Source of the DNA: a virus
Lineage: Duplodnaviria; Caudoviricetes
Direction: 5' to 3' (one strand)
Length of the DNA: 54,967 nucleotides
Virus record (IMG/VR): IMGVR_UViG_3300033146_003625
Coordinates: 1 to 54,967 of that record
Position 1 is the first letter of the stretch, and the number at the start of each line of letters is the position of its first letter. The translations under genes were made by a program, and so were the position numbers. Shown here piece by piece: positions 34,906-54,229 of the stretch. The notes under the pieces are model-generated. The model was given only the letters and a program-made list of their open reading frames with translations, searched no databases and was not told the origin of the DNA.

Positions 34906-35815
34906 ATATTAACTCCTTTAATTTTAATTTTATGTCTTCATCATATCTTATTCTATATAATTTAATATTATTCTTTTTACAATATTCATTTTTTATATCA
35001 TCATTTATTATTTGTTTCTTATATTTTTCAATACCACCAAAAAATCTAATGGGTTTAAAATGTTGTTCTCCATCATACTCTATTAATATATTTTTATTAG
35101 GAAGATAAAAATCAAATGAAAGCAATTTTATGTTTTTACATCCAGCAAAAGTATATTGTGACAAAAATTTTATATTTTTATTATTTAAATATTTAGTTAT
35201 AATCTTTTCACCTTTAGATTCATTACATACCGGACAACCAATTTTCTGTAAATGACTACTTGGTATCTGTTCAAATATACCATGTTCTGGACATATTATT
35301 TTAATTTTAGTTTTATTATTTTTATAATCAACTAAAGAATAATCATATTTATTACTATGTACTTGCTTGGCTTTTTTTATAAATTCTTCTGTAGACGATG
35401 ACATTTTATTATTAGCGTTAATTCGTCCACAGTCAGGACACCCTCTATTTGTTACATGAGCTATCGGAGTTTGTTCAAATACTCCGTGCTCTGGACATAT
35501 TATTTTAACTTTAGTTCTATTATTCTTGTAACAAACAAGTTTGTAATCATATTTATTTCCATGTATTTTAGAAACTTTTTTTATAAATTGTTTTTTATTA
35601 GAAACATTTTTATTATTTGTAGTTATAATCGAACACTTCATACAATTTTGTCCTGCTAAATGATTACTGGGCAATTGTTCAAATATACCATGTTCAGAAC
35701 ATATTATTTTTATTTTAGTTTTACTATTTATATAATCAACTAAAGAATAATCATATTTATTGCCATGTTTTAATTCAGCTTTATATATAAATTCTTCAGT
35801 TGTTAATTTTTTCAT
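34895..35815 (-). CDS. Zn-ribbon-repeat homing-type endonuclease (3 repeats)
   Basis: Paralog of 827..1900. Confidence 0.85.
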   Translation of the reverse strand: MKKLTTEEFIYKAELKHGNKYDYSLVDYINSKTKIKIICSEHGIFEQLPSNHLAGQNCMKCSIITTNNKNVSNKKQFIKKVSKIHGNKYDYKLVCYKNNRTKVKIICPEHGVFEQTPIAHVTNRGCPDCGRINANNKMSSSTEEFIKKAKQVHSNKYDYSLVDYKNNKTKIKIICPEHGIFEQIPSSHLQKIGCPVCNESKGEKIITKYLNNKNIKFLSQYTFAGCKNIKLLSFDFYLPNKNILIEYDGEQHFKPIRFFGGIEKYKKQIINDDIKNEYCKKNNIKLYRIRYDEDIKLKLKELICER

Positions 35816-39218: not shown

Positions 39219-40304
39219 TTATAATAAAGATAATTTTTCTTCTATATTCTCAGTATAGTTTATTCTCAATAAAGGAATGTTATTCTCTTCACAGAATTTA
39301 TTCTTGAGAGCATCTCTCCTCTTAATTTTATCAAACTCTTCTCCACCACCCCAACAATTCTTAGGAATAAAATGTTGTTCACCATCATACTCAATAGCAA
39401 GATTGAGAGAAGGGATGTAGAAGTCAAACGGGAGAGGGTTTTTATCTCGACATTTAGTCCATCTTTTCTGCCTCTTAAATTCCACTCCTTTCTCAGTTAG
39501 GAGCCGTGCAACTTCCTTCTCACCACTCGATTCATTACAAGAAGGACAACCACTTCCCATGTTTATATGAATACGAGGTGAGGTCTGAAACTCCCCATGG
39601 TGAGGACAAATAACTGTGGACTTGGTATCTGCATTTATATACTCGAATTTAGAATAATCATATTTATTGCCGTGTTTTTTAATAGCGTTTTTTATTGCAT
39701 CTTCTGTGGTCCAAGGTGTATTTGTTCTAGTCATACATTTAGGACAATTTTTAGGTTTTAAATGATTTAATGGACGTTGCTCAAATACACCATGTTTTGG
39801 GCATATTATTTTAACTTTAGTTTGCGAATTTTTATATTCTACCAATGAATAATCATATTTATCACCATGTACAACTTTAGCTTTTTCTATAAATTTATCT
39901 GTAGTTAAAGACATATTTTTAGCATTTTTTATGGTAGCACATTGTCCACACCCCCTTCCAGATAAGTGCTTTGACGGCGTTTGAGTAAATTCACCGTGGT
40001 CTTTACATATAATGATAAGGCGAGTATCTGCATTTACATAGATAGATTTTGAGTAATCATATCTGTCCCCGTGTATGTTTTTGGCCTTCATAATAAACTT
40101 GTCTATTCCAAATCGTTTCCTGCCTTTCGTACATTCTTTACACCCAGATCCCGTTAAATGGTTATTCGGTCTTTGCATAAACGAACCGTGTTTATCACAT
40201 ATTATTTCTATTAAATTATATGTTCCAATATATATCACTTTAGAATAATTATATTTATCACCATGTTTTAATTTAGCCTTTTGTATAAATTCTTTTGTGT
40301 TCAC
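39219..40304 (-). CDS. Zn-ribbon-repeat homing-type endonuclease (4 repeats)
   Basis: Paralog of 827..1900; LPFDFY..IEYDGEQH. Confidence 0.85.
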   Translation of the reverse strand: MNTKEFIQKAKLKHGDKYNYSKVIYIGTYNLIEIICDKHGSFMQRPNNHLTGSGCKECTKGRKRFGIDKFIMKAKNIHGDRYDYSKSIYVNADTRLIIICKDHGEFTQTPSKHLSGRGCGQCATIKNAKNMSLTTDKFIEKAKVVHGDKYDYSLVEYKNSQTKVKIICPKHGVFEQRPLNHLKPKNCPKCMTRTNTPWTTEDAIKNAIKKHGNKYDYSKFEYINADTKSTVICPHHGEFQTSPRIHINMGSGCPSCNESSGEKEVARLLTEKGVEFKRQKRWTKCRDKNPLPFDFYIPSLNLAIEYDGEQHFIPKNCWGGGEEFDKIKRRDALKNKFCEENNIPLLRINYTENIEEKLSLL

Positions 40305-41170
40305 ATTTCATTTCCATCTAATATAAATTTAAATTTTTTGCCTAAAGTAGCTGCATATTTTATTGCAGCTTTATTTTTAGCTTCTATTTTTCCAGATGCA
40401 AGATTTTCTTTATACCAATGATGAAATCCTTTAATTTCTACTAAATATTGATCCGTCTCAAAATCTATATAATATATATGTTTTTCGCCATTTAATGTAT
40501 AAGGTATGGCAGGTCCATCTTGTATTTTGATGTTAGCCGCTAAACATTTATTTATGTATTCTAGTTCAGGTTTAGTCTGATAATGTAAATTATCATTTAT
40601 TTTTTTTTGTCTATTGGCTCTACCAGATGCAGACATAACTTTATTATGAATTGACAAACATTGATTTGGGTTTTCAACACCATATCGTTTTAAATTAGTT
40701 TGTTTTATTTTATCTTTTACTTCTTTAGATTGGAAAGGATTTTCAACACCATATCGTTTTAAATTAGTTTGTTTTCTCTTTTTTTTCACACTATCAAGTT
40801 TTGATGGGTTATCAACACCATATTTTTCTTGAAATGTTTCTTGAACAGATTTTTTAGATGTGAAATGACATCTATATGAAGCAGATTTTATTTGTTTTTT
40901 TGATGCGCAAGGTCTACATAATTTATTATATCCTTCAGAAAATTTTCTAAATACCAAATCTTTTCCGCATTCGCATTTTGGGATATTTTTTAATTCATAG
41001 ATATAAAGATATAACAATTCTTGATTATTATTTAATTTTAAAGATAATTCATCTATAAGGTTTTCTCTAATATTTTGTAGTAATCCATGCTGAACAGCAG
41101 CAGCATTTAAAATTAAACCTTTTTTACCTATTTTTAATAATTTATTATAAATATAATTTTTTAAATCCAC
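40301..41170 (-). CDS. Homing-type endonuclease with KRYGVENPxQ repeats and a TnsA-like PD-(D/E)xK domain
   Basis: IPY...HIYYIDF..LVEIKG..K..AA. Confidence 0.75.
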   Translation of the reverse strand: MDLKNYIYNKLLKIGKKGLILNAAAVQHGLLQNIRENLIDELSLKLNNNQELLYLYIYELKNIPKCECGKDLVFRKFSEGYNKLCRPCASKKQIKSASYRCHFTSKKSVQETFQEKYGVDNPSKLDSVKKKRKQTNLKRYGVENPFQSKEVKDKIKQTNLKRYGVENPNQCLSIHNKVMSASGRANRQKKINDNLHYQTKPELEYINKCLAANIKIQDGPAIPYTLNGEKHIYYIDFETDQYLVEIKGFHHWYKENLASGKIEAKNKAAIKYAATLGKKFKFILDGNEM

Positions 41171-41244: not shown

Positions 41245-41790
41245 TTATTGTGGGATACCCCCCTGACCTGAATCAGCTTGAAGGACTGCATAGTCAAATC
41301 TTAAAGTCATTTCAACTTGAAGAGCTTCTGTTCCCTCATAAGACAAATCCTGCCAATTAATATTCTCAGGGAAGGAACCGAAAAGGTCCCAAATTTCAAT
41401 AATCTTACCATCAGGTCCAAGCATAACAAGAGTAGCATTTGTTTTATAAACAATTGCATAACCTTGACCACCTGTTAACGGATTATAAATTGCTGTAAAC
41501 CAATGATAAAGAATCTGCGAAGCAGAATTTGTACCTTTATCGTAATCGTAGAATAGACAAGAAATTGCCTCCCAGGATGGTTTTGAAGCAAAGTAAAATT
41601 TTTCATTTAATCTGTGCATCTCAATAGGTTCTAATGAAACAGAAGGTCTTGATGCTGATAAAATATCAATAGCAAGAGATTCAGTAGCATTGTTTCCTTT
41701 ATTAGGAACACGGTCAAATTTTAATATCCATCTATTTTTTCTTTTAGGTTCTCTAAAACTGTGCTCAGCAGAGCTTAGTACGATAGCCAT
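41245..41790 (-). CDS. Tail tube protein (T4 gp19-like)
   Basis: EPKRKNRW, ASRPS, YK...L.MLGPDG..IE.W.L.G.FP, L.YE, LRFDYA; start at MAIVL after GGAGG. Confidence 0.88.
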   Translation of the reverse strand: MAIVLSSAEHSFREPKRKNRWILKFDRVPNKGNNATESLAIDILSASRPSVSLEPIEMHRLNEKFYFASKPSWEAISCLFYDYDKGTNSASQILYHWFTAIYNPLTGGQGYAIVYKTNATLVMLGPDGKIIEIWDLFGSFPENINWQDLSYEGTEALQVEMTLRFDYAVLQADSGQGGIPQ

Positions 41791-41971
41791 GTTTATTACC
41801 TCCAACATATAGTAGAGTTTCAATCACTCTATTTTATCTTCATGCTTTCCTTGTAAAAAGCATAAAAATTTAATCTATTTTATTTTCTTTAATTATCTTT
41901 TGTTTTAAATCGTTTTATTGCAATTTTTATCTAAGATATAAGCATAATTATAATCTTTAGGGGGTAAAAAT

Positions 41972-42493
41972 ATGTGGTATACAATATCATTAATTCTCAT
42001 ATTAACTGCGGGCAAGGATTTACTCTTCCTTGCTAAGATTGATGCTTTTAGTAGAAGTAATAAACTTTATTTAACAGCAGTTAATTTCGTTGAAGCTTCA
42101 TACGCTATAATAGCTATTAAAGTTGTATTAGACTTAATGACTGGACAACCTTTATATGCTCTTGTATTCGGAGCAGGAAGCGTTATAGGCGGTCTTATAT
42201 CGTCTGTTATTAAAGGGAAACTAGATAAAAGACTAGAAGGACAAAAGAAGTTTTATGCTCGTATAGCTCTAGACGATGATATAGATAGATCTGAACTCGT
42301 AAAAACATTAGCAGCAAGAGGATATGAATTCACTCTCGATACTAAGGAATATATAACGGGGAAAACTAGAACTGTTTTACAGGGGTCATTAGAGAATAGA
42401 AAAAGAATGCTAGAATTAAGAGAAGTATTACGCGGTAGAAAGAATAAACATGTAGTAATTCTAAGGGCAGAAGATGTATATCTTCTAAGATAA
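41972..42493 (+). CDS. DUF2179/DUF5698-like membrane protein
   Basis: 3 TM segments with FVEA..AIIAI..V..YALVFGAG and a C-terminal soluble domain. Confidence 0.6.
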   Translation: MWYTISLILILTAGKDLLFLAKIDAFSRSNKLYLTAVNFVEASYAIIAIKVVLDLMTGQPLYALVFGAGSVIGGLISSVIKGKLDKRLEGQKKFYARIALDDDIDRSELVKTLAARGYEFTLDTKEYITGKTRTVLQGSLENRKRMLELREVLRGRKNKHVVILRAEDVYLLR

Positions 42494-42521
42494 AAAAGGG
42501 AACGGTTAAGTTCTTTTTTTT
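42492..42521 (+). terminator. Probable intrinsic terminator
   Basis: aaaaaagggaac-ggttaa-gttctttttttt (with G-U pairs). Confidence 0.6.
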
Positions 42522-42620
42522 AATAAGGCTTATTAATATAAAATTTTGTACATATAGCTTTATGACATTTTTACACTAATGTCACAAATATAAAGCATAT
42601 TTTAACATAAGGAGAATTTA

Positions 42621-43502
42621 ATGAAACTCATAACAATACTACTCTTATTCTTATCTATTTTTATATTCGCAGATGAGTCTATAATTATGGATTTTAGTAA
42701 TCTTAATGCAGATACTGAAGGCGAGAACACAGCAACACTTTTCAACTACGCACCGTATCTTCCTGAAGGATATACAGGTGATAATAATATATCTTTAGCT
42801 ATTGAGAATTGGGTTGTCTTATTAAATCCTTCTTCACAAACTGTAGAGAACGAGAAACTATCATATACTAAGGAAGCACCGTCTAAAGTGTCAGGTAATG
42901 TCCTAGGTATAAGAATACACTTTCCCATAACACCTAGCAATGCATATGCTGACATACTTCCACCATTTGAAATACCTGTGTTCAATGAACAGGGTTTAGA
43001 CTTTACACAACAGTTAGGTATAGTCAAAAATGTAGGTGAATTAAAAACGGTTAAGGTTAAAGTATATGGTAAAAATTTTCCTCATACTCTTTATTCTATG
43101 TTTGAAGACCAGAAAGGTGAGTTAATATCTATCCCTATGGGTTCGTTGCAATTTCTTGGTTGGAAGGAATTGGTATGGGAGAATGCATCTTATATTGATA
43201 AGGTTGAGAACAGAAAATTAGTAGCTTTGCCAGAATACCCACGTGGCTCTAAGTTCTTAAAATTTATAGGTTTCAGAATATTTAGACATAATTTTGATCC
43301 AGGTGGTGATGTAATATTTTATGCTAAAGATGTTACTATAACATATGATAAAGCAGAATTAGATTCTGAACCAGACTTTAACGATGAGGAGATTTGGGGT
43401 ATTATAGAAGAAAGAGAATTGCAGCACAACAAAGATGAAATGGAGAAAATTGCAACGCTTATGTATTTAAGACAGCAAGAAGAATTGAAGATGACTGATT
43501 AG
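42621..43502 (+). CDS. flaA: Spirochete flagellar filament outer-layer (sheath) protein FlaA
   Basis: Signal peptide plus ADES..DF..LNAD, W.V.LN.S, VLG.R..FP, G.VKNVG.LK, YG.N.PH.L, MG.L.F..WKEL.W.N..YI, KDV...YDKA, D.E.WGI; collinear with Treponema FlaA as I recall it. Confidence 0.92.
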   Translation: MKLITILLLFLSIFIFADESIIMDFSNLNADTEGENTATLFNYAPYLPEGYTGDNNISLAIENWVVLLNPSSQTVENEKLSYTKEAPSKVSGNVLGIRIHFPITPSNAYADILPPFEIPVFNEQGLDFTQQLGIVKNVGELKTVKVKVYGKNFPHTLYSMFEDQKGELISIPMGSLQFLGWKELVWENASYIDKVENRKLVALPEYPRGSKFLKFIGFRIFRHNFDPGGDVIFYAKDVTITYDKAELDSEPDFNDEEIWGIIEERELQHNKDEMEKIATLMYLRQQEELKMTD

Positions 43503-43804
43503 AATTTATATTTATACTCTACGTCATTTATCGACGTGATCATAGCATGATTTAATATACCACTATTATCTATATTTAGTTCGACATCATAATACTCATT
43601 TTCTTGATCTTCTATTTCAAGCATTATTTCTATTTTATTGTTAAATTCGATAAATACAGAATCTGTAAAATCACAATTGAAATCCATATCATCGATAATT
43701 TCGTCAATAGAGTCAAAAAAAACAATACCATTGTAATGAAAACCATCTCCTTTCATTTCAAGATTAAAAACAAAATCTACTAGTTCTTTAGTTATGTTTT
43801 TCAT
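43499..43804 (-). CDS. Hypothetical acidic protein
   Basis: Coupled ORF. Confidence 0.6.
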   Translation of the reverse strand: MKNITKELVDFVFNLEMKGDGFHYNGIVFFDSIDEIIDDMDFNCDFTDSVFIEFNNKIEIMLEIEDQENEYYDVELNIDNSGILNHAMITSINDVEYKYKF

Positions 43805-44427
43805 ATGTCTTTATACCTTATTCCCAGTTCATTCATAAGACCAATAACTTTGTTATAATACTTCCTATTGATATAAAATATTTTTATGTTTGAGGAATTT
43901 TTATTTATTCTAAAAAACTTTAAATTTTTCATATCCACATGTTCCTTCATCCAGCCTATTGTTTTAAACCATTCAATTTTCTCTGGAATATCTTTAACCC
44001 TAGACACAGAACCAACTTCACCACAATTTATTGCTTGCGGTATTGCCTCCCTTTTTGGAATGGGTGTAATATATATAAAATCAATTATATTTAAAGCTTT
44101 CAGAAAAGTAAAAAATGCACTAGTTTTAGATTCCATTTTATTTCTTTTTATTTCTCTAGTATGATAATCATCACCTCTATCGCCATCAGCCCATAGGTAG
44201 TTTAAATCATATTTATTTCCCTTCTTTTGTATAGCATATCCTTTATCAACAAAAGGAGAGAGAAATTTATCTATTAAGTCTGCACCAGTTAAATCACGAA
44301 AAGTATGTCCTTCAATACCGTAATTTGACATATTCATAAGGAGAGTCGATATATTTTTAAAATTACCAATCCTTTCTAATATATTACTATCAAATATATA
44401 GTTAAATAATTCGTATTTATATTCCAT
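43801..44427 (-). CDS. Hypothetical protein
   Basis: AAGATAA 4 nt upstream. Confidence 0.65.
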   Translation of the reverse strand: MEYKYELFNYIFDSNILERIGNFKNISTLLMNMSNYGIEGHTFRDLTGADLIDKFLSPFVDKGYAIQKKGNKYDLNYLWADGDRGDDYHTREIKRNKMESKTSAFFTFLKALNIIDFIYITPIPKREAIPQAINCGEVGSVSRVKDIPEKIEWFKTIGWMKEHVDMKNLKFFRINKNSSNIKIFYINRKYYNKVIGLMNELGIRYKDI

Positions 44428-44502
44428 ACTATTATCTTATAAGGGAATAAAAAAAAGCATAGTTTTATACAAGATATATTTATGTAACCAGTAAAGGATA
44501 AG

Positions 44503-46107
44503 ATGGAATTAATAAAAATTATAACAAAAGAAAACGAATATATTTTCGGTAAAGACGATATTAAACTAAAAAGTGGATTAAAAACGAAAACTCACACAAA
44601 TGTTACATCGTATTTAATCAATAATAATTATGTAGTAATATCGTCTGATAAAATAGTATTTGAATGTGATATTTGTAAAAAAGAAGTAATTAAAACATAT
44701 TCAAATTTTAAAAATAGAAAACATGATTTATGTATTTCATGCACAAGAAAAAAAACAGTTACAGAAGTTCATAAAAATATGAATAAAGAAGATAGAAAAG
44801 AATTGAATGATAAAATATCTAAAACTACTAAAATAGCAATGAATAATATAACGCCAGAAAAAAGATTACAAATGACAGAAAAAATGTTAAAGTCTATGAA
44901 TTGGGATATAAGAAATAAACATTGGTTGGAAACAATGTCTAATAAAAGTAATGAAGAAAAAAAAGAAATAGGTAATAAAATATCTCAATCGTTAAAAAAA
45001 CGTTATAAAGAACAAGGTCCATGGAATTTAAGTAAAAAATATTCAGGAAGCCGATATTCAGCAATAGATTGCAAGTATTATACGAGGGGATTACATTCAT
45101 CAAATGAAGTAATAGAAGTTAAATGTGATTCTTGCAAAAATATATTTAAAACAATAAGAATGGCGGCAGCAAGGCAAGAACGTGAACATCCTGGATTTAT
45201 TCAATGTAATAATTGTGTCCGCTCAGCTAAATCAATAAAAGAAAAAGAAATAGTTAATTGGTTAATAGATATAGGTATAAAAAATATTAATGAAAATACA
45301 AGAAAAATAATTAATCCGTTAGAATTAGATATTTTTCTTCCAGATTATAATTTAGCTATTGAATTTAATGGTCTTTATTGGCATTCTGATTTACAAAGAA
45401 AAGACAAAAACTATCATCTTAATAAAACAATAAAATGTGAGGAACAAGGTATACAACTAATACATATATTTCAAGATATTTGGGAATATAAAAATGATAT
45501 AGTTAAGGCTAGACTTAAAAATATTCTAAATTTAAATTCTAAAAGAATAGGAGCACGTAAAACTGTTGTAAAAAAAATCAGTGCAAAAACTAAAAATATT
45601 TTTTTAGAAACTTATCATATTCAAGGTAAAGATGCTGCTAGTGTTAAATTGGGAGCTTATTACGGAAAAGAATTAATAGGTGTTATGACTTTTGCACAAA
45701 ACAGAATATTTTCGGGTAAGAAAAAAGATGATTCGTGGGAATTATCTAGATTTGCCACTATTAGTAATACATATACTCCGGGGCTAGCTTCTAAAATGTT
45801 AAAACATTTTGAAAAAAATTATGAATGGAATACTATATATTCCTTTGCAGATAGATGTTGGAGCCAAGGTAATTTATATTATAAATTAAATTTTGAATTT
45901 GATAAACAAACAGCGCCATCATATTGGTATGCATATAACGGTCAATCACTTAGAGAACATAGATATAATTATAGAAAACAAAATTTAACAAAATTTAATA
46001 ATTTTTCTTTAGATAAAACTGAAAAACAAATTATGAATGAAGCTGGCTACTTAAGAATATATGATTGTGGAACATATAAATTTATTAAAATAAAAAAGGG
46101 AGTCTAA
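44503..46107 (+). CDS. Hef-like homing-type endonuclease
   Basis: C-terminal half paralogous to 32005..33558 (ELDIFLP..IEFNGLYWH..RIYDCG). Confidence 0.8.
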   Translation: MELIKIITKENEYIFGKDDIKLKSGLKTKTHTNVTSYLINNNYVVISSDKIVFECDICKKEVIKTYSNFKNRKHDLCISCTRKKTVTEVHKNMNKEDRKELNDKISKTTKIAMNNITPEKRLQMTEKMLKSMNWDIRNKHWLETMSNKSNEEKKEIGNKISQSLKKRYKEQGPWNLSKKYSGSRYSAIDCKYYTRGLHSSNEVIEVKCDSCKNIFKTIRMAAARQEREHPGFIQCNNCVRSAKSIKEKEIVNWLIDIGIKNINENTRKIINPLELDIFLPDYNLAIEFNGLYWHSDLQRKDKNYHLNKTIKCEEQGIQLIHIFQDIWEYKNDIVKARLKNILNLNSKRIGARKTVVKKISAKTKNIFLETYHIQGKDAASVKLGAYYGKELIGVMTFAQNRIFSGKKKDDSWELSRFATISNTYTPGLASKMLKHFEKNYEWNTIYSFADRCWSQGNLYYKLNFEFDKQTAPSYWYAYNGQSLREHRYNYRKQNLTKFNNFSLDKTEKQIMNEAGYLRIYDCGTYKFIKIKKGV

Positions 46108-46119
46108 ATAGACTCCCCC
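46092..46119 (-). terminator. Intrinsic terminator after the sheath gene
   Basis: gggagtcta-aa-tagactccc with U-tract on the minus strand. Confidence 0.8.
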
Positions 46120-46139
46120 AATAAATTAAATAATTTTAT

Positions 46140-48974
46140 TTATTCACTAAATTCTACATCACCAGCAGCATTAATTGTAAATTCTACTTCAATAAATTCT
46201 ATAACTTTCGTAGGCTGAACAAAAATTTTCCCAGCCATTATATTCTGATTTATTAAATCAGAAGTATTAGTAGTAGCATCACAAATTACTTGATACTGAT
46301 AGAGACCACGTCTTTGTCTAATAGGTTCAAGAATAGCATTAGCCTGTCGTGCAAAAGCAGCCCAATTTGATGCATCATTCTGTTCGAATAAAAATCCACG
46401 AGCCATTCGTGCAATAAGCTTTTCACTATAAATCATAAGTCGTCTTACGTTAATTCTATCAAGAGCTGATTTAGTTCTTTGAGCAGTTTTCTGACCCCAA
46501 ATTACAATACCTTCTCCAACAAGTTTAACAATAGGATTGATTACATTTGTGTCTCCGTAAAGGATATCTCTTTCAGCACGTGTTGGAGAATACTCAACAT
46601 CAAGTGCAGTAACTTTACCACGTCTAAGACCAGCAGCAGCATACCAAGGATCAGCTACATTATCAGTATAAACCATTTGAGTCATAGCATAAATGGATGG
46701 TGGTAACCAAACATACTGTTTATTATCTGCATCGTAATCCTGGAGCCATGGCCAATAAGTACCAACATATGAAGAATTTAAGTTTTCATTCATTGAATTA
46801 ATTTCAGATACATGATTTAATTTCTCTTTAACACCAAGACCCATTCCAAAAGGAGCAGCGTCAATAATACCAAAACAATCATGTCTTGATTCACAAAGAG
46901 TTTGTATTTCATTTTGCACGGCAGATGCAGCAGCACCTGGAGCAGCAACCATATTGAAATCGTAAACTTCAGGGTTGTAAATTTTCTTAAGAGCATTAAT
47001 AAGATCAGTGTCCATAGAAGTAATAACACCGTCACTATCTTCTGTCCAACCGTTAGAACCAACTGAAAAGTCAACAATAGTTGCAACAGATTCAAAAACA
47101 TTCTCTGGTAATTCATCATCACCAAGTGTCCAATCTCCATTTGGAAATGGATCAGTAGAAGCAAATGTAACAAAATCTCCATCTTCATCTTCAGCTTCCA
47201 TATGAAGATATCGATCATTTTCTAACACTTTAGGTAAATATTTATCACTTGTTGGGTCATCCCAATTAATTCTTTGATAAATTGAAACTTCTTTACCATC
47301 AAGAAGAACAAAAGCATTATAGTAAAATTCAACTTCTGTGGCACTTACTTGAACTTGTTTTGTTTCAGTTCTTAATACTAGTTTATTGCCATAGACGCCT
47401 TTTTCAGCGGCTATTAAATTAACTAAAGCTGTACCGATAGGTGATGCTTGGATACCATCAACAGGTTGATCAACGTTGGTAAGAAGATCAATTAAAGAAT
47501 TAGCACCAGAATTTTGAATTCTTACTATTGATTTAAAACCGTCAGCTGCAACTGAATCAGTTGTAATTCTAATTTTATTATCAACGATGGATACATTAGC
47601 TCTAGCTCTATCATGAGTATAATCTGTATAACCAGCTTCTAATTGAGTTTGAATATCAACTATCATATCATTGTAAGTCCAATCGCTAGATGCTGGTGAT
47701 GTTATTACAATATCCAGAGGCTCAACAAATGTTTCAACATTATTTTCTGCAATACCTTTTTTCTGAAGTAATAAATTACCAGAAAAAGTTCCCACATTAT
47801 TTTCAGCATTCCAAGTACCGTAAATATATTCGTTATCATTATAAGTTTTTAAAGAAAAACCTAATCTTACAGCTAGTTCACTATTAACTATTGTAAAACC
47901 TGTTGAAGCTCCAGAAGCTATAACTGTTGCTTTTCTTCTTAAACCAATACGCGTTCCTGTAACAACTCCACCATACATTAAAAATGCTTCTAAGTCATTA
48001 CTTAAATCAACAATAGTACCGTTGCTATCTTCTGCTGTTATTAACTTAGTATTGATTTGATTCACAATATCTTGTTCATCAGTAGTGGCCATATCTAAAG
48101 TTATAGTATAATTTACATTATCTAATACAAATACTAAATCTTCGGGTGTTGCGTTAAAATCAAACGCTGCTGATATAGTATTACTACTAAGAGCTACTGC
48201 ACCATATGTACCGTTAACCATAACATAACTGTTATTCCCGGATGAAGGAGCTGCACCATTCATTCTGTATCTATATACTGTACTTGTTACTGTAGAACCA
48301 ATAGTTCCATCACCAACTCTTACGCCAGTACCGTAATCTTCGCTAGTTGTGTCTGTAGTTAAACTTTTATATTTATAATTTATTTTAAAATTATTATCAG
48401 ATAAATTGTTATAAGCAATTTTTATAACTTGATTAACTACTTCACTTGCTGGATGTGGAGCAGATACGCTGTTTGTTGTTTCATGAGTATATGCTTCCCA
48501 CGTTTCTACTATTTGTGGTTCTAAAAATGCTCTGTGGTCTGCGATAACTTTAAAACCAAAATCAGTTTCTGTTGCAAAAGTTCCTGCAGGAACAATATTA
48601 TTGTTAGCTGTAAACGCTTGATATGCTGCAGAAGCCGCCAAGTCTGTTTCACCTAATCTAATTTTTTTTGAAGCATATTGTGCTGCTTGTGGATAAAGTT
48701 CAGGGTCTCTATTATCACCTGCTCTAGTTACAAGGAGTGATTGTCCTTGTGCAAAATATTTATAAGCTGCTTGTGCGAGATATGGTGCATCTGCTAATGT
48801 TTTACCATATACTTGTACAAAGTCTTCGACACCACTAACTATATAGGGTTCGAATGGTCCTTTTTCTGCATAACCCACAAGAGCTGCTACATTACCTGCT
48901 GGCTGTGTAGATGTATACTGTGAGTTATCAACTTCTCTAGTTAATACTCCAGGACTTAAAAGAAATCTGGCCAT
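46140..48974 (-). CDS. Contractile tail sheath protein (T4 gp18-like) with a large insertion
   Basis: LSPGVLTREVD, GYAEKGP, YWPW, PW.A.AG..RG, IWGQKT, RINVRRL, FEQND, EFI. Confidence 0.93.
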   Translation of the reverse strand: MARFLLSPGVLTREVDNSQYTSTQPAGNVAALVGYAEKGPFEPYIVSGVEDFVQVYGKTLADAPYLAQAAYKYFAQGQSLLVTRAGDNRDPELYPQAAQYASKKIRLGETDLAASAAYQAFTANNNIVPAGTFATETDFGFKVIADHRAFLEPQIVETWEAYTHETTNSVSAPHPASEVVNQVIKIAYNNLSDNNFKINYKYKSLTTDTTSEDYGTGVRVGDGTIGSTVTSTVYRYRMNGAAPSSGNNSYVMVNGTYGAVALSSNTISAAFDFNATPEDLVFVLDNVNYTITLDMATTDEQDIVNQINTKLITAEDSNGTIVDLSNDLEAFLMYGGVVTGTRIGLRRKATVIASGASTGFTIVNSELAVRLGFSLKTYNDNEYIYGTWNAENNVGTFSGNLLLQKKGIAENNVETFVEPLDIVITSPASSDWTYNDMIVDIQTQLEAGYTDYTHDRARANVSIVDNKIRITTDSVAADGFKSIVRIQNSGANSLIDLLTNVDQPVDGIQASPIGTALVNLIAAEKGVYGNKLVLRTETKQVQVSATEVEFYYNAFVLLDGKEVSIYQRINWDDPTSDKYLPKVLENDRYLHMEAEDEDGDFVTFASTDPFPNGDWTLGDDELPENVFESVATIVDFSVGSNGWTEDSDGVITSMDTDLINALKKIYNPEVYDFNMVAAPGAAASAVQNEIQTLCESRHDCFGIIDAAPFGMGLGVKEKLNHVSEINSMNENLNSSYVGTYWPWLQDYDADNKQYVWLPPSIYAMTQMVYTDNVADPWYAAAGLRRGKVTALDVEYSPTRAERDILYGDTNVINPIVKLVGEGIVIWGQKTAQRTKSALDRINVRRLMIYSEKLIARMARGFLFEQNDASNWAAFARQANAILEPIRQRRGLYQYQVICDATTNTSDLINQNIMAGKIFVQPTKVIEFIEVEFTINAAGDVEFSE

Positions 48975-49001
48975 GTTAATTTTCCTCCATTAATTTTTAT
49001 A

Positions 49002-49160
49002 TTATTTTTTAATTATTTGAATTAACCCTTTTGATTTCAAAGCTATCATTTGGGGTGTTACGCTATCAACATCCTTAGATTTACGTCCAGGTACTAACAT
49101 TGTTTTACCTTCGATAATAAGACCAATAGGTTGATAAGTCTTGTTTTTGATTTTAACCAT
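49002..49160 (-). CDS. Small protein upstream of the sheath gene (52 aa, not in the ORF track)
   Basis: AAGGAG SD; MVKIKNKTYQPIGLIIEG...KGLIQIIKK. Confidence 0.7.
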   Translation of the reverse strand: MVKIKNKTYQPIGLIIEGKTMLVPGRKSKDVDSVTPQMIALKSKGLIQIIKK

Positions 49161-49176
49161 TTATAAACTCCTTTAT

Positions 49177-50160
49177 TTAAATTCTACTTAATCTGTCTTC
49201 TATGTTTTGTTCTAAGTCTATTTCCCCGATGTAAGCTTGTTCACGGTCAAATGGCAATGGCATATAAGCGGTGGTGATGGTGAAATTGATTTCGGTACGC
49301 ATTGTTCTCTGAACGTTGCTACCTGGTTCTAAGTCTGACGCATCAGCTATTCCTTCCATTAATGCATGTGCCCATTGTCCGTGGTGTTCTCGATCTATTC
49401 TACAGTTATCACCACCAAGAGTGAATTCAAATCCATATTCCTCATCCCCAACCCAGAAATACTTCTCTGGTGCAAATTCAGACTGAACTTGATATTGTAA
49501 CATAGACATATGAGAACGATAAGCGGTCCAAATGTTTATACTATATGTTAATTGATATTCTTGTAACGGTGGTACCGCTGAAGAACCAATTTTTTCGCCT
49601 TCATTATCATAATACCTTCTTGTATAATAATTTTCTTTTGGTCTAATACCTTCCTTAACTTGGTAATCACTTAAATAAAAAGCAACCCCAGGGGTTTGTA
49701 TCAGACCATTTCTAAGTGGTTGAGCTATACGAGCAATTGCATCCTGCATCTCTGCATAGAAAACATTAACTACTCTTCTCATTCTCCCACCAGGAGTAGG
49801 TTGTGCTGATCTCAACTTCTTGTATTCTTTATTAAGAATTATAATATTATCTTTTACTGCTTCAATCATAAAATAATTATCATTTCTTCCATTATAAAGG
49901 GTGTCATAAAGTTTAATAGCTTGTTGAGCCTTCAAACCGTGTTCTGTTGTTGTTAAAACAACTTCATGTTGATTGACACCAGGAGTTGTAACCGGAGCAC
50001 CATCGTTGCTATAAGTTTCTACAACAGTTGTTCCTCTAGTTGTTATACTCTCTATTTCAAAATCATATTTAATAAGATGTGGAAGGTCTATTAAATCTCT
50101 CAACCAATTTTGTATTACTAAAGAATATTCTCTAAATAGCGGATAGTAGTGTGTTGACAT
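49177..50160 (-). CDS. Probable tail terminator/sheath stabilizer (gp15-like)
   Basis: P...YQLTYSINIWT..M..L..Q pattern; position upstream of the sheath gene. Confidence 0.6.
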   Translation of the reverse strand: MSTHYYPLFREYSLVIQNWLRDLIDLPHLIKYDFEIESITTRGTTVVETYSNDGAPVTTPGVNQHEVVLTTTEHGLKAQQAIKLYDTLYNGRNDNYFMIEAVKDNIIILNKEYKKLRSAQPTPGGRMRRVVNVFYAEMQDAIARIAQPLRNGLIQTPGVAFYLSDYQVKEGIRPKENYYTRRYYDNEGEKIGSSAVPPLQEYQLTYSINIWTAYRSHMSMLQYQVQSEFAPEKYFWVGDEEYGFEFTLGGDNCRIDREHHGQWAHALMEGIADASDLEPGSNVQRTMRTEINFTITTAYMPLPFDREQAYIGEIDLEQNIEDRLSRI

Positions 50161-50172
50161 TAATTAGTGCTC

Positions 50173-50832
50173 CTATTTTGATAACGCATCTTTTAATTCT
50201 TTTTGTAAATCTTTGTTTAATTTGCTATACATATCTTTTTCATAATTTGTAACAATAAAATCTCTAACTTGTTCAGAAGCTTTTTCCATTAATTTAGGAT
50301 TATGTGTTGCATCTCCTTCAAAGAATAGCGGACCTTTAAAATCGTCTCCTTGAAGTTTAGCAGGGATTTCATAGTCTCCGCCATAATATGCTACACGTAA
50401 TGCTCTAAAAATATCTTCAGTTCCTGGATTTGCCGATAAAATTATTTCTGTATTAATTTCTTTTGTATAATCATCACTACGACCACCTATCGTATCATAT
50501 ATAACATTTACCTTTGTATTACCTTCAAATTTACCGGTAAAATCTTTACTTCCTTCCAGTATAGCTTTTAATTGTTCTTCCATATTTATTACAGCTCGTG
50601 AAGATTGTATAACACTATGTATAACTTTTGGTAACCACGCTTGTTCTTTTATAGCTTTAATTTCTTCTATTGTTTTACCTTTAACAACACCATCGTTAAT
50701 AGCTGCCATAATTTTTTCTGATGTAACTTCAACATAAGCTTTACCGATAGCCGTAAACAATTTTTCAGAATCTTTTTTATTTTTTAATAATTTTAATAAA
50801 TTAATTTCTTGTACCATAGCATTATCTTTCAC
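50173..50832 (-). CDS. Hypothetical protein
   Basis: 219-aa ORF. Confidence 0.65.
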   Translation of the reverse strand: MKDNAMVQEINLLKLLKNKKDSEKLFTAIGKAYVEVTSEKIMAAINDGVVKGKTIEEIKAIKEQAWLPKVIHSVIQSSRAVINMEEQLKAILEGSKDFTGKFEGNTKVNVIYDTIGGRSDDYTKEINTEIILSANPGTEDIFRALRVAYYGGDYEIPAKLQGDDFKGPLFFEGDATHNPKLMEKASEQVRDFIVTNYEKDMYSKLNKDLQKELKDALSK

Positions 50833-51027
50833 AAAAAAATACCTTTAATTCATTAAAATTATTTTTTTTTATAAAAGATATTATAACTAAGTTAAATTAA
50901 TTAGAATATAATGTGTATTTGAAAGTGTACTTTTTATAAATGTGTAAAACTATTCTTAAGTTAAACTATGCTTTTTCATCCTATGTTATTAAGATAATAG
51001 TGAAAGAAAAAAAATTAGGAGAAAAAA

Positions 51028-53568
51028 ATGAGCGAATTACAAGATCAAATTCAAGCACAATTAGACACAGCTCTTCCTACAACTATAATACAACTACCGG
51101 ATGAACTATTAGATTTCCCTCTTACAATATCAAATACATGTATTGTCATGGGTGGTGCAAATACTGTTATAGATGTTTCTTCTCTAGATGTAGAGTATGC
51201 TATTAAAATTGAGGTTGATGACGTTGTTTTCTCTGATGTTAAAAGTATTAAAAATAAAACTGAAGTTGGATATCATGGTGTATATGTTAAAGGATCTAAC
51301 ATATCTTTAGAAAGATTTGATGTATCATGTGATGCAGGTATTTACGCGGAAAATTGTATTAATTTAGATATTATTGAAATAAAAGCAATAGAAGCTAATA
51401 CCGGTTTCCTTATCAAAGATAGCCGTAATATAGATATAAATGGGTGTGAAGCTGAAAACTGTCAAATAGGTTTAGATATTATAGGTTCATCATCTATTAT
51501 AGGTGATGTTGATACTTATCAATTTTTAGGCTTGAATATAACTGCAAATGAAATATCAATTCTTATAGATGGAACTGTTTATTCTATAGAAATAGATGGT
51601 TTAATTTACTCATTTACTGCAACACCTAATATGACCTTTCAAGAAATAATAAATACAATTAATTTGATATCTGATTTCCAGCCCACGTATATGGCCACGT
51701 TATTAGACAATGATATTAAAATATCAAGTCAAAATTCTGCTCTCTCTATAACTAATACAACTATGGGTAGTGATTTGATATCGTCTTTAGGTTTAACGTT
51801 AGACGCACCAAATAATAATATTGTTATCTCAACTCAAGCTTTGGGTTTACCTCCTACCGCCTCTACTGATATTACTCCTTTAACTGGTGGTACTATATAT
51901 TCATTTGATATTGATGGGGTAATGTTTAATTTTGTTGCTTCCCATAATATGACTTATCAACAATTAGTTGATGCTATGAATGTTAGTATAACAAATCTTA
52001 ATATTGCTTCACCTCCTTTCATCACATTTAACGGAGATATATTATTTAAAAATTATGAAGTATCTATAACACTAACTATGGGTTCTTCTTATACTGATCT
52101 ATTAAAAACACTTTTAGGAGTTACAACCATTACTCTTCCCACAACAGAAAACAATGTTGTAACTTCCCAACAAGAATTTGGTCTCTCAGTCCTCTCTACA
52201 GATAATACTCCACTTATTAATACGACCTATCTATTTAAAGTTAATGGAATTAATTATTCATTTACCGGTTTTGCTAATATGACATTTCAAGATATAGTAG
52301 ATGCTATAAATTTAATTTCAGATTTTCCATATACAGCAGAATTTGTTGATGGAGATATAAGGATTATTGCGAGTGCTGAATCAATACTCGTTGAACCTTC
52401 ATCAGTAGGCTTAGATCTTCTTACAGCTCTTCAGGCTAATGTCCAAACAGCAGTTGAGGGAGGAGAAAATTATAGATTAGATCGCTCTCACCATATAAAT
52501 GTTACTAATACTCTTCTCCATCATAATGTATTTGGCTCACGTTTTTTAAACGCTAATGACGTCGTATTTGACAATAGTAGGGTTTTCTTTAATACAAACA
52601 TAGGTATATGGCAATTACCTAATTCTTATAATAATGTATTCAGAGGAGAGATTTACTCTAATACAAATTATGGTATAAGAAATACAGATAAAGCTGGTGG
52701 ACCTCATATACTTGATGCTATGGAAACTTGGTGGGGTGATATAACTGGACCAGCACAATTTGGTACAGGTGAAGGTGATAAAATATCTGCTTATGTTGCT
52801 TATCAACCTGTAAGACAAAGTGGTACCATCCCCGATCTTAGTTATCCTAAAACTAGAAGATTCATTCTCTCAGCTCTTGGATATCCAGTAGTTAAAGTTG
52901 AATTAACTGACGAACAAATAATGGAAGCTATAGATAAAGCTGTTGCAAAATATATGCAATATAGAACACCAGAACCTATGCAGAGATATATAGCTGCTAG
53001 CGCTGGTAGTAATATGGTTCAACTTCCACTAGATATTCCAAAAGAAGATATTATTGAGGTTACATACTCGCCTAATGCTGATATATTTGCTCAGCTTTCG
53101 GGTTCGGGTGAATCATTCCTAATGACATATTATATGCAGGGAACTTCCGGTACTTTCTTAGCAGATTTCTTTATTGCTATGTCTTATAGAGAGACTATGG
53201 AATCAACTTTAGGTATCATGCCTACATATGAACTTCTATCTGGTTTAGCACTTGACGGCTCTGGAGAATATAGAGATTTTATACGTTTAGCACCAAAACC
53301 TAGTGGTAATATTTCCATTGGTCTACTTGTTAGTAGACCAATGACTGAAGAAGAGGCAGATAGTATTGAATGGATTCATCGTTATGCACTCGCGTGGAGT
53401 AAGTCTATATTAGCGCAAATTAGAGGTAAGTATGGATCAGTACCAGGACCTACTGGTGAAATGACCCTAAATTCTGGGTCTCTTGAATCTCAAGCACAAA
53501 TGGAAATTGAAAAATTAGAAGAAAGTGTTATTCTCAGGTCTACTCCTCTTGGTTTTCATTGTGGATAA
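51028..53568 (+). CDS. Neck protein (T4 gp13-like C-terminal domain) fused to a beta-helix and three repeated domains
   Basis: C-terminal LGYPVVKVELTDEQI..AI..A, WI.RYALA..K..L..IRGKY..VPGP.G..TLN; N-terminal parallel beta-helix repeats. Confidence 0.78.
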   Translation: MSELQDQIQAQLDTALPTTIIQLPDELLDFPLTISNTCIVMGGANTVIDVSSLDVEYAIKIEVDDVVFSDVKSIKNKTEVGYHGVYVKGSNISLERFDVSCDAGIYAENCINLDIIEIKAIEANTGFLIKDSRNIDINGCEAENCQIGLDIIGSSSIIGDVDTYQFLGLNITANEISILIDGTVYSIEIDGLIYSFTATPNMTFQEIINTINLISDFQPTYMATLLDNDIKISSQNSALSITNTTMGSDLISSLGLTLDAPNNNIVISTQALGLPPTASTDITPLTGGTIYSFDIDGVMFNFVASHNMTYQQLVDAMNVSITNLNIASPPFITFNGDILFKNYEVSITLTMGSSYTDLLKTLLGVTTITLPTTENNVVTSQQEFGLSVLSTDNTPLINTTYLFKVNGINYSFTGFANMTFQDIVDAINLISDFPYTAEFVDGDIRIIASAESILVEPSSVGLDLLTALQANVQTAVEGGENYRLDRSHHINVTNTLLHHNVFGSRFLNANDVVFDNSRVFFNTNIGIWQLPNSYNNVFRGEIYSNTNYGIRNTDKAGGPHILDAMETWWGDITGPAQFGTGEGDKISAYVAYQPVRQSGTIPDLSYPKTRRFILSALGYPVVKVELTDEQIMEAIDKAVAKYMQYRTPEPMQRYIAASAGSNMVQLPLDIPKEDIIEVTYSPNADIFAQLSGSGESFLMTYYMQGTSGTFLADFFIAMSYRETMESTLGIMPTYELLSGLALDGSGEYRDFIRLAPKPSGNISIGLLVSRPMTEEEADSIEWIHRYALAWSKSILAQIRGKYGSVPGPTGEMTLNSGSLESQAQMEIEKLEESVILRSTPLGFHCG

Positions 53569-53600
53569 ATTAATTATCCACAACATTTTCTTTGAATATA

Positions 53601-53643
53601 TCTAAAGACCAAATTGTTAAAGTATTATAATTTTGGTCTTTAG
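53601..53643. terminator. Hairpin between convergent genes
   Basis: ctaaagaccaaa...tttggtctttag; a second hairpin gtggataa..ttatccac at about 53561-53581. Confidence 0.6.
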
Positions 53644-53725
53644 CATATAATTTTTTTCATTATTATAATCCCATCTTTATACTGCTGTAATTGTTCTCCA
53701 TCAGTCTTTCACTATGTTATCTGTT

Positions 53726-54163
53726 TTATTGTTTAATACTTTGGAGTACTCTTTCTAAAACTTTATCACGGTTAAGAGGCTTTACTATATAGTTTTTTGC
53801 ACCTATTAGTAAGGCCTTTTTAACAAGGTCTTGCTTTCCTAGAGCACTAATCATAATAACTTTTGCATCTTTATCAAATTCAATTATTTTTTCAAGTGCA
53901 GAGATACCATCCATCTTGGGCATGGTAATATCCATAGTAACAAAATCAACATCAGGATAAAGTTCTTTATATTTTTCTACACCTTCAAATCCGTTACCTG
54001 CAGTTTCGACAACCTCAAAACCTTCTGATATTAATATTTGACCAAGTTGTTTCTTTACGAACATAGAATCATCAACAATTAAAACTTTATATTGTTGTCC
54101 ACTCTCGTTATAACCTTCTGGTTTTCTTTTATTTATATTGGGGAAATCAGCTTTTGTTCTCAT
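53726..54163 (-). CDS. cheY: Spirochete-type chemotaxis response regulator CheY
   Basis: N-extension K.DFP.IN.R.P.G; VLIVDDSMFV.KQL.QIL.SEG; VTMDITMPKMDGI; MISALGK; GAKNYIVKPL. Confidence 0.92.
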   Translation of the reverse strand: MRTKADFPNINKRKPEGYNESGQQYKVLIVDDSMFVKKQLGQILISEGFEVVETAGNGFEGVEKYKELYPDVDFVTMDITMPKMDGISALEKIIEFDKDAKVIMISALGKQDLVKKALLIGAKNYIVKPLNRDKVLERVLQSIKQ

Positions 54164-54229
54164 ATAATTATCTTATTCCTTTTAGTATTTATTTGTAAAA
54201 TATATTAAGATAATAAAAGGAGAAATAAA

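What the first reader, a model, noticed from the sequence alone, without database searches (positions are those of the whole stretch)
42621..54163. Large myophage carrying spirochete motility genes FlaA and CheY among its tail/neck genes
Seen: an intact FlaA with signal peptide lies between the tail tube and tail sheath genes, and an intact CheY with the spirochete-type N-terminal extension lies next to the neck gene. Each has its own phage-type promoter motif (AAGCATA at 42593; AAGATAA at 54168). Known: FlaA sheathes spirochete periplasmic flagella, and flaA shares an operon with cheA/cheW/cheX/cheY in Borrelia. Inference: the phage infects a spirochete and may reprogram motility by altering motor switching (CheY) and filament coating (FlaA), for example to change the movement of infected cells or block superinfection. 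I know of no described phage system like this.
Basis: partly seen in the sequence, partly recalled or inferred. Interest (0 to 1): 0.92.

Follow-up and report, generated by a model that had tools for sequence, protein, structure and literature searches.

The report
Spirochaete phage carrying flaA and cheY
A fragment of a very large T4-like phage really does carry an intact spirochaete flagellar-sheath gene and an intact chemotaxis switch gene, each behind a phage-type promoter motif, which suggests that the virus interferes with how its host swims.

Summary
The window is a virus record estimated at 21% complete. It has T4-like replication, recombination, baseplate, tube, sheath and neck genes.

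ORF 42621-43502(+) is a FlaA (PF04620, E 4e-55) with a signal-peptide-like N-terminus. It lies between tube and sheath. ORF 53726-54163(-) is a full-length CheY with the spirochaete N-terminal extension. Its best solved match is Borrelia CheY3 (E 5.5e-46).

Both genes have phage-like GC3. Both sit behind motifs enriched upstream of other phage genes.

FlaA is not an assembly artefact. A second phage contig (tube 92% identical) has a FlaA in the same slot. A third has SufB there, and a roughly 92%-identical variant lacks exactly the cassette.

CheY was found only in this phage. It is 91% identical to its nearest relative and nests among cellular che-operon CheYs near Sediminispirochaeta.

FlaA keeps the residues that contact the filament core. 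Two conserved FlaA-FlaA contacts are changed.

The host inference is well supported. Reprogramming of motility is plausible but untested, and its direction is unknown. I rate it a new variant of phage accessory genes, interest about 0.6.

The parts
41245..41823 (-). tail tube protein
   Evidence: phrog_4542 E 1.1e-28. 92% and 91% identical to the tubes of related phage contigs L002 and L085.
41972..42493 (+). 173-aa membrane protein, same strand as FlaA, with its own AAGCATA motifs (41858, 41940) and a terminator-like hairpin at 42491-42522
   Evidence: No Pfam, PHROG or NCBIfam hit. A 37%-identical homologue lies next to the tube in L085. UPF0316/DUF5698-like by Atlas, a lead only. Hairpin.
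42593..42599 (+). AAGCATA promoter-like motif 28 nt upstream of the FlaA start
   Evidence: The same motif precedes the helicase, topoisomerase II, UvsX, peptide deformylase and gp47-like genes.
42621..43502 (+). FlaA, periplasmic-flagellum sheath protein homologue, short form (293 aa)
   Evidence: PF04620 E 4.3e-55. T. denticola major FlaA chains E 2e-51. Clade with L002 FlaA and P0003, SH-aLRT 100. GC3 0.259 against a phage mean of 0.204, sd 0.061.
43499..44427 (-). two small ORFs (101 aa and 208 aa) conserved in the related phages
   Evidence: BLASTP against L002 (30% and 35%) and L085 (28%). The 208-aa ORF has AAGATAAT 11 nt upstream.
44503..46107 (+). homing endonuclease with a Mom-like domain
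   Evidence: phrog_3339 E 3.7e-105; PF25680.
46140..48974 (-). tail sheath protein (944 aa)
   Evidence: phrog_23 E 2.1e-71; PF17482. 67% identical to L002 and 65% to L106.
49177..50832 (-). two conserved ORFs (327 aa and 219 aa) between sheath and neck genes, function not assigned
   Evidence: No family hit. 70% and 29% identical to their L002 counterparts.
51028..53568 (+). 846-aa neck/head-tail adaptor protein with beta-helix and repeat insertions; AAGATAAT 37 nt upstream
   Evidence: phrog_211 E 7.2e-16 (residues 611-834); PF13229. The motif sits at the same relative place in L002.
53602..53643 (.). inverted repeat (19-nt arms, 84% complementary) between the convergent neck and CheY genes, terminator-like
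53726..54163 (-). CheY, single-domain chemotaxis response regulator with the spirochaete N-terminal extension
   Evidence: PF00072 E 1.3e-25. 3HZH CheY3 E 5.5e-46. 91% identical to P0038 and 81-84% to che-operon CheYs. D31, D32, D78, S106 and K128 are invariant with 14 cellular CheYs. GC3 0.185.
54167..54174 (-). AAGATAAT promoter-like motif directly upstream of the CheY start. Its mirror copy at 54207-54214(+) serves the divergent 70-aa ORF.
   Evidence: A weak sigma-70-like match, TTTACA-18-TAAGAT, lies at 54199-54170.

Best explanation
The window is part of a T4-like jumbo myophage of an uncultured spirochaete. Judged by CheY, the host is related to Sediminispirochaeta. The phage carries two host-derived accessory genes (morons) that were acquired separately.

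(1) cheY looks like a recent capture of the che-operon CheY, the counterpart of Borrelia CheY3. It came without its kinase CheA and without its phosphatase CheX. Inferred: when made from a phage promoter, host CheA phosphorylates it and it binds FliM. [quoted passage not shown] Chemotactic navigation is thereby overridden.

(2) flaA is an older or more diverged capture that keeps its export signal. Inferred: it is secreted to the periplasm and docks on the FlaB core, because the core-contact residues are kept. It then perturbs the sheath lattice, because two conserved FlaA-FlaA contacts are changed and the loops and C-terminal tail are missing. This would alter filament stiffness or curvature.

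Shown: gene identity, intactness, phage residence, the promoter-like motifs, phylogeny, and patchy distribution among relatives. Inferred: expression, phosphorylation, export, incorporation into the sheath, and the direction of the effect on swimming.
For: Phage identity:
- Topoisomerase II, UvsX, gp46/47-like, helicase, baseplate hub, tube, sheath and neck genes are present.
- It is a virus record estimated at 21% complete.
- One relative is a 388-kb record estimated at 98% complete, with 54% sheath identity.

FlaA:
- Family match. The model's best fold match is Leptospira FlaA1, E 9e-12, at pLDDT 68.7.
- The independent contig L002 (tube 92%, sheath 67%) has a 52%-identical FlaA between sheath and tube.
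- A 378-nt contig of run X1 bridges the FlaA 3' end into the next phage ORF.
- Core-contact positions are kept. S71 is S in 83 of 83 cellular-type rows. K276 is K or R in 70 of 83.
- Position 179 is L in 3 of 3 nearest phage-clade FlaAs and D in 65 of 83 cellular-type rows. Position 251 is P, E or T in the phage clade and R in 58 of 83 cellular-type rows. The contacts were taken from section 11 of PMC13439194.

CheY:
- All receiver residues are invariant.
- It pairs with P0038 (SH-aLRT 99) inside a clade (100) that holds CheYs from cellular cheA-cheW/R-cheX-cheY operons.

Composition and signals:
- Cellular CheY GC3 is 0.34-0.54 against 0.185 here.
- Both promoter-like motifs are enriched upstream of gene starts.
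- AAGATAAT also precedes the neck and tube genes in L002.

Physiology from the literature: in B. burgdorferi, high CheY3-P (cheX mutant) gives constant flexing without translation, and loss of cheY3 gives constant running (passages of bioRxiv 10.1101/2020.05.18.101634).
Against: - There are no expression data. No RNA holder was listed.
- CheY lies only about 800 bases from the contig end. Its junctions are not confirmed by an independent assembly.
- CheY was not seen in the 404 bases after the neck gene of L002. It was not seen in the 40.6-kb L085/L106 record or in five more distant records.
- FlaA is absent from a roughly 92%-identical variant (X3 contig), from L085, and from 5 of 5 more distant relatives. 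It is therefore dispensable.
- Six of nine mapped FlaA-FlaA contact positions are kept, so FlaA may simply be a working sheath subunit.
- Some cellular FlaAs of about 300 aa also have shortened loops, so the deletions are not phage-specific.
- The contact residues come from T. denticola, not from the unknown host.
- The 150-nt upstream windows are AT-rich. The permutation control allows for this only in part.
Confidence: 0.55

Rival explanations
1. Maintenance rather than sabotage. After host shut-off the phage resupplies CheY and sheath protein so that the infected cell keeps swimming and navigating towards nutrient-rich, host-dense zones. Cyanophage psbA sustaining photosynthesis would be the analogy (recalled).
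For: CheY is almost host-like: 91% identical to the nearest relative, with all 87 invariant columns of alignment A2 kept. FlaA keeps the core contacts and 6 of 9 mapped lattice contacts. Both genes are intact and have phage-like composition.
Against: FlaA is no more than 46% identical to any cellular FlaA found and sits on a long stem of 1.26 changes per column. That is odd for a straight replacement part. Only CheY of the whole pathway is carried, without CheX. Filaments are long-lived structures (general knowledge).
Confidence: 0.2
2. Repurposed proteins with no direct motility role. FlaA, a CBM-like beta-sandwich, would act in the periplasm as a glycan or peptidoglycan binder, for example in superinfection exclusion or envelope remodelling. 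CheY would act as a phosphate sink or as a regulator of phage or host targets other than FliM.
For: After FlaA1, the FlaA model matches carbohydrate-binding modules and phage tailspike domains at E 4e-6 to 1e-3. FlaA is strongly diverged, and the short-FlaA clade is deep. PHROGs holds several receiver-domain families of unknown function.
Against: The residues that touch FlaB in T. denticola are kept. CheY conserves the whole sequence, not only the phosphorylation pocket, which argues for unchanged partners.
Confidence: 0.12
3. Neutral passengers. The genes were picked up by illegitimate recombination in a hypervariable slot and are on their way to being lost.
For: Distribution is patchy. FlaA is in 2 of 7 related viral records and missing from a close variant. 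CheY is in 1 of 7. The same slot holds SufB in L085.
Against: Both reading frames are intact, the functional residues are conserved, codon use is phage-like, and phage promoter-like motifs are present. FlaA is retained in two phages whose neck proteins have diverged to 52%.
Confidence: 0.09
4. Assembly chimera or host contamination joined to a phage contig.
For: CheY is near the contig end, and no second assembly confirms its junctions.
Against: FlaA is flanked by phage genes in two independent assemblies, and its right junction is bridged by a contig from another run. Both genes have phage-like GC3 of 0.19-0.26, against 0.34-0.54 for cellular CheYs. CheY shares a divergent promoter region with a neighbouring phage-style ORF.
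Confidence: 0.04

Closest known systems
Major flagellar sheath protein FlaA of Treponema denticola (PDB 10PL/9PIM; Pfam PF04620)
   Same: Same family (E 2e-51) and a signal-peptide-like N-terminus. The FlaB-contact residues are conserved (S86 to S71, K317 to K276), as are 6 of 9 mapped FlaA-FlaA contacts (PMC13439194 section 11).
   Different: It is encoded by a phage. It has 293 aa against a median of 338. About 20 residues after the PPFEIP motif and the C-terminal tail that carries E342 and E345 are missing. D220 becomes L and R292 becomes P. It is no more than 46% identical to any cellular FlaA found.
CheY3 of Borrelia burgdorferi (PDB 3HZH) and the che-operon CheYs of Spirochaetaceae
   Same: A single receiver domain with the spirochaete N-terminal extension. 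All phospho-acceptor and pocket residues are present. It is 75-91% identical to uncultured Spirochaetia CheYs and nests inside their clade.
   Different: It stands alone in a phage, without cheA, cheW or cheX, on the opposite strand to its neighbours and behind a phage motif. Its GC3 is phage-like.
Host-derived auxiliary genes (morons) of T4-like phages, such as cyanophage psbA (recalled, not searched)
   Same: A host gene in a variable slot among structural genes, with its own expression signals. It is present in some relatives and absent from others.
   Different: The cargo is a structural part of the motility organelle plus its switch protein, not a metabolic enzyme.
Phage proteins that block type IV pilus motility, such as Tip and Aqs1 (recalled; only a search listing touching the topic was seen)
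   Same: A phage interfering with host motility during infection.
   Different: Those are small phage-specific inhibitors. Here the genes are homologues of the host's own parts.
Nitrosospira phages reported to encode flagellin, FliI, CheR and CheY (bioRxiv 10.64898/2026.05.02.722434; one passage read)
   Same: Motility and chemotaxis genes annotated in phage genomes.
   Different: The host phylum differs. 'FlaA' there is a flagellin, not the spirochaete sheath protein. No mechanism was tested there either. The supplementary tables could not be seen.

Membership tests
FlaA, spirochaete flagellar filament outer-layer protein (PF04620) | Profile match above the curated cut-off over most of the domain | tested here: met
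   187.3 bits against a cut-off of 25; profile positions 30-228 of 230.
FlaA, spirochaete flagellar filament outer-layer protein (PF04620) | N-terminal Sec-type signal peptide (FlaA is exported to the periplasm) | tested here: met
   Residues 1-17 are hydrophobic and end in the FA/DE site that aligns with cellular FlaAs. Judged by inspection only; no predictor was available.
FlaA, spirochaete flagellar filament outer-layer protein (PF04620) | Residues that contact the FlaB core in the solved T. denticola filament | tested here: met
   S86 maps to S71 (S in 83 of 83 cellular-type rows). K317 maps to K276 (K or R in 70 of 83).
FlaA, spirochaete flagellar filament outer-layer protein (PF04620) | Residues that form the FlaA-FlaA sheath lattice | tested here: inconclusive
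   Six of nine mapped positions are kept. L179 replaces D and P251 replaces R. T239 lies within cellular variation. The tail carrying E342 and E345 is absent.
FlaA, spirochaete flagellar filament outer-layer protein (PF04620) | Physical presence on periplasmic flagella | not testable with these tools
   Needs expression and cryo-EM or immunoblots of purified filaments.
CheY, chemotaxis response regulator (spirochaete CheY3 type) | Receiver domain with acidic pocket, phospho-acceptor Asp, and conserved Ser/Thr and Lys | tested here: met
   PF00072 at 90.2 bits against a cut-off of 30.2. D31, D32, D78, S106 and K128 are invariant with 14 cellular CheYs.
CheY, chemotaxis response regulator (spirochaete CheY3 type) | Single domain with the spirochaete N-terminal extension | tested here: met
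   145 aa. 3HZH aligns from residue 12, whereas other CheYs align only from residue 25 or 26.
CheY, chemotaxis response regulator (spirochaete CheY3 type) | Orthology with CheYs encoded in cheA-cheW-cheX-cheY operons | tested here: met
   It lies in a 16-row clade (SH-aLRT 100) with the CheYs of L107 and L108, whose neighbours are CheA, CheW-CheR and CheX.
CheY, chemotaxis response regulator (spirochaete CheY3 type) | Linkage to cheA, cheW and cheX in its own genome | tested here: not met
   No other chemotaxis or motility family was found in the ORFs of the window that were scanned.
CheY, chemotaxis response regulator (spirochaete CheY3 type) | Phosphotransfer from CheA and binding to FliM | not testable with these tools
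   Biochemical assay needed.
T4-like contractile-tailed phage | Sheath, tube, baseplate hub and neck, together with UvsX, gp46/47, topoisomerase II and helicase | tested here: met
   PHROG hits with E from 1e-20 to 1e-120. Capsid, portal and terminase are not in the window.
Phage moron / auxiliary gene | Host origin, own expression signals, and presence or absence among close relatives | tested here: met
   Trees; motifs and hairpins; a variant lacking the cassette and SufB in the same slot.

The most novel reading that the evidence does not exclude
A lineage of jumbo phages of sediment spirochaetes takes control of host behaviour in two ways. A secreted, lattice-defective 'short FlaA' is built into the periplasmic flagellar sheath and changes its mechanics from within. 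An extra CheY without its phosphatase locks motor switching. This would be the first virus known to encode a structural component of a bacterial flagellum. The deep 'short FlaA' clade (6 rows, SH-aLRT 99) would then be a phage-borne protein family.
Probability: 0.3. Interest if true: 0.85.

Novelty: new variant of a known kind. Interest (0 to 1): 0.62.

Why it matters
No T4-like jumbo phage of a spirochaete has been cultivated, as far as I recall. My searches found no described phage carrying the spirochaete sheath protein.

If the genes act as proposed, they would show that phages manipulate flagellar motility with copies of the host's own parts. They would give natural variants of FlaA and CheY for probing sheath assembly and the still unclear coordination of the two polar motor sets. 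They also tie an uncultured phage lineage to a host group without CRISPR evidence.

The two recurrent promoter-like motifs offer a first view of transcription classes in this phage group.

Tried and rejected
Searches that found nothing or could not settle the question:
- FlaA as a single query found no relative in IMG/VR. An alignment was needed.
- CheY found no relative in IMG/VR by single protein or by alignment. 8 and 164 pattern hits were made, none confirmed.
- The neck-protein alignment found nothing in metagenome contigs.
- The short-FlaA representatives P0157-P0163 found no IMG/VR locus, so their genomic context stays unknown.
- The host could not be narrowed beyond the CheY clade. The best CheY in 401 sampled Spirochaetota genomes is 78% identical. 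The family of that genome holds only 3 genomes. The genome behind L068 gave no CheY at E 1e-50.
- No RNA holder was listed for the stretch. This is no evidence either way on expression.
- The laid runs are fragmented contigs. They gave no piece bridging neck to CheY. Parts without cover are not interpreted.

Ideas considered and dropped:
- The T4 late-promoter word TATAAATA is over-represented (38 sites against 22.6 expected), but I did not find it placed upstream of the structural genes examined. I dropped it.
- I first took the deleted loops to be phage-specific. Cellular FlaAs of about 300 aa with intermediate loops weaken that reading.
- Identity alone cannot assign sequences to the short clade. 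Identities within the clade are 40-54%, about the same as to cellular FlaAs.
- A virion role for FlaA was considered and rejected because the export signal is conserved.
- No complex-prediction job was sent, because the host's FlaB and FliM are unknown.

Choices made before counts:
- In the tree, 79 of the 80 genome loci gave a FlaA ORF by my motif filter, and P0002 was dropped as identical to L002.
- In one search, every second cellular row was left out, as were representatives shorter than 270 aa.
- In one search, rows were P0038-P0070, then every fourth up to P0156, 4 named proteins and 12 locus-derived CheYs.
- Supplementary files of papers were closed. Tables of PMC13439194 and of the AOB-phage preprint may hold relevant detail.

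Full report
WHAT IS THERE

The window is a virus record of 54,967 bases that CheckV puts at 21% complete. That implies a genome of roughly 260 kb.

PHROG and Pfam scans give a T4-like set of genes:
- helicase 5381-6922
- topoisomerase II parts 10636-11964, 14189-14950 and 16319-18085
- UvsX-like recombinase 23890-25200
- gp46/gp47-like nuclease 27280-30540
- baseplate hub 33882-34763
- tail tube 41245-41823
- tail sheath 46140-48974
- an 846-aa neck/adaptor protein 51028-53568
- nine homing-endonuclease-like genes

The sheath is only 25-34% identical to those of GenBank phages.

THE TWO GENES

ORF 42621-43502(+) matches PF04620 FlaA at E 4.3e-55. It matches the T. denticola major sheath protein chains at E 2e-51. 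An AlphaFold model (pLDDT 68.7) is closest to Leptospira FlaA1 (E 9e-12) and then to carbohydrate-binding modules. Its N-terminus aligns with the signal peptides of cellular FlaAs.

ORF 53726-54163(-) is a 145-aa receiver domain. Its best solved relative is B. burgdorferi CheY3, E 5.5e-46, aligned from residue 12 and so including the spirochaete extension. All pocket residues are invariant with 14 cellular CheYs.

No other motility or chemotaxis family turned up in the ORFs of the window that were scanned.

DO THEY BELONG TO THE PHAGE?

GC3 is 0.259 for flaA and 0.185 for cheY. The mean over 76 ORFs is 0.204 (sd 0.061). Cellular CheY genes have GC3 of 0.34-0.54.

An independent IMG/VR contig (L002/L105) has these identities to the window: tube 92%, sheath 67%, 327-aa protein 70%, neck 52%. 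It carries a 52%-identical FlaA between sheath and tube, though on the same strand as those genes.

A third relative (L085/L106; tube 91%, sheath 65%) has SufB and a homologue of the 173-aa membrane protein at that place, and no FlaA.

In run X3 a 1,401-nt contig joins window 42497 to 43499 with 29 other letters. It therefore lacks exactly the promoter-plus-flaA cassette. In run X1 a 378-nt contig bridges the flaA 3' end into the next ORF.

flaA is therefore a genuine but dispensable cassette in a variable slot.

cheY is less secure. It lies about 800 bases from the contig end. The 404 bases after the L002 neck gene hold no CheY, nor does the 40.6-kb third record. Two IMG/VR scans found no relative.

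Five more distant viral records found through the sheath include a 388-kb record that is 98% complete. They have no FlaA (0 of 5) and only receiver matches of 25-33% identity, all in that 388-kb record.

EXPRESSION SIGNALS

AAGCATA occurs 28 times. Eighteen sites lie within 150 nt upstream of a same-strand start, against 10.4% expected (P 9e-12). None of 209 same-composition permutations reaches that count. It precedes flaA, the helicase, topoisomerase II, UvsX, peptide deformylase and the gp47-like gene.

AAGATAAT occurs 21 times, 11 of them upstream (P 2e-6; 0 of 167 permutations). It precedes cheY, the neck gene, the tube (76 nt upstream), the 208-aa ORF and the divergent 70-aa ORF. In L002 it stands at the same distance before the neck gene and 97 nt before the tube.

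This suggests, but does not show, that flaA is transcribed with the DNA-metabolism genes and cheY with the structural genes.

Terminator-like hairpins follow the 173-aa ORF and lie between the neck and cheY genes.

ORIGIN OF THE GENES

FlaA relatives in species genomes are titled as spirochaetes in 79 of the 80 best loci. The exception is a 2.8-kb contig of a Bacteroidota bin.

In a tree of 86 rows the window's FlaA, the L002 FlaA and P0003 form one clade (SH-aLRT 100) on a stem of 1.26 changes per column. An exhaustive search added further short representatives. Three of them join the clade (6 rows, SH-aLRT 99), but their context is unknown.

CheY pairs with P0038 (91% identical; end branches 0.18 and 0). 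The pair sits inside a clade that holds CheYs from cellular cheA-cheW/R-cheX-cheY operons with about 41% GC. That clade lies next to a Sediminispirochaeta bin. Treponema CheYs are 63-67% identical.

In two cellular relatives flaA lies within about 8 kb of cheY. It is separated from the che operon by two opposite-strand genes.

Runs holding close relatives of the phage are labelled hydrothermal vent and marine sediment metagenomes. The pieces laid are 90-99% alike.

MECHANISM

In B. burgdorferi, excess CheY3-P (cheX mutant) makes cells flex in place, and loss of cheY3 makes them run constantly (passages read). An extra CheY without CheX should therefore shift the cell towards flexing and reversal.

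I mapped the T. denticola contacts (PMC13439194, section 11) through the printed alignment:
- The phage FlaA keeps both core contacts.
- It keeps six of nine lattice contacts.
- It has L for the conserved D at position 179 and P for the conserved R at position 251.
- It lacks the C-terminal tail and about 20 loop residues.

Cellular FlaAs of about 300 aa also have shortened loops. The argument for a 'poison subunit' therefore rests mainly on the two substitutions and is weak.

VERDICT

A spirochaete host is well supported. Reprogramming of motility is a reasonable but untested inference, and maintenance of motility is a live alternative.

This is a new variant of the known phenomenon of host-derived phage accessory genes. 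GenBank phages show no FlaA (0 of 50,697 records). Only 21 records have any receiver match at E 1e-10 or better, the best at 50% identity.

Noticed in passing
window 827-1900, 4315-5409, 11951-12718, 30578-32008, 32005-33558, 34895-35815, 39219-40304, 40301-41170, 44503-46107: Nine homing-endonuclease-like genes lie in 55 kb, several of them paralogous. Three carry a Mom-like domain. This is an unusually high load.
   Followed up: partly
window 14189-18085: The topoisomerase II large subunit appears split. The N-terminal part is at 16319-18085 and a Toprim part at 14189-14950. A 445-aa ORF of no known Pfam family (14940-16277) lies between them.
   Followed up: no
window 7438-9312: A 624-aa DUF285 repeat protein (PF03382, E 1e-65). 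Its DNA shows a word recurring at 72-nt steps between 8577 and 9090.
   Followed up: no
window 42559-42588: An 11-nt inverted repeat (91% complementary, 8 nt apart) lies directly upstream of the AAGCATA motif of flaA. It could be an operator.
   Followed up: no
window 54163, 44427, 35815, 38204 (starts on the - strand): At four genes, cheY among them, the motif TAAGATAAT or AAAGATAAT ends 5-6 nt before the ATG with no Shine-Dalgarno sequence between. This would fit leaderless transcripts.
   Followed up: partly
L085 7859-9277: A related phage carries a SufB/SufD-type Fe-S assembly gene (PF01458, E 7e-78) in the accessory slot next to the tube gene.
   Followed up: partly
L003 18-1100: An IMG/VR contig of 50 kb ends in an ordinary cellular-type FlaA that is 80% identical to that of a Treponema bin. 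It is probably host flank or a prophage border, not a phage FlaA.
   Followed up: partly
L005: A 2.8-kb contig of a bin titled Cryomorphaceae carries a FlaA nearly identical to that of a Spirochaetaceae bin (L004). This is probably a binning error.
   Followed up: no
G411 (L196, L202-L204): A 388-kb viral record estimated at 98% complete, with 54% sheath identity, encodes three receiver-domain matches of 25-33% identity. One lies in an open frame of 1,096 aa.
   Followed up: no
window 19627-20217, 22422-22898, 23066-23728: Nucleotide-salvage genes (NT5C 5'-nucleotidase, nucleoside 2-deoxyribosyltransferase-like) and a peptide deformylase. The deformylase is preceded by two tandem AAGCATA motifs.
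   Followed up: no
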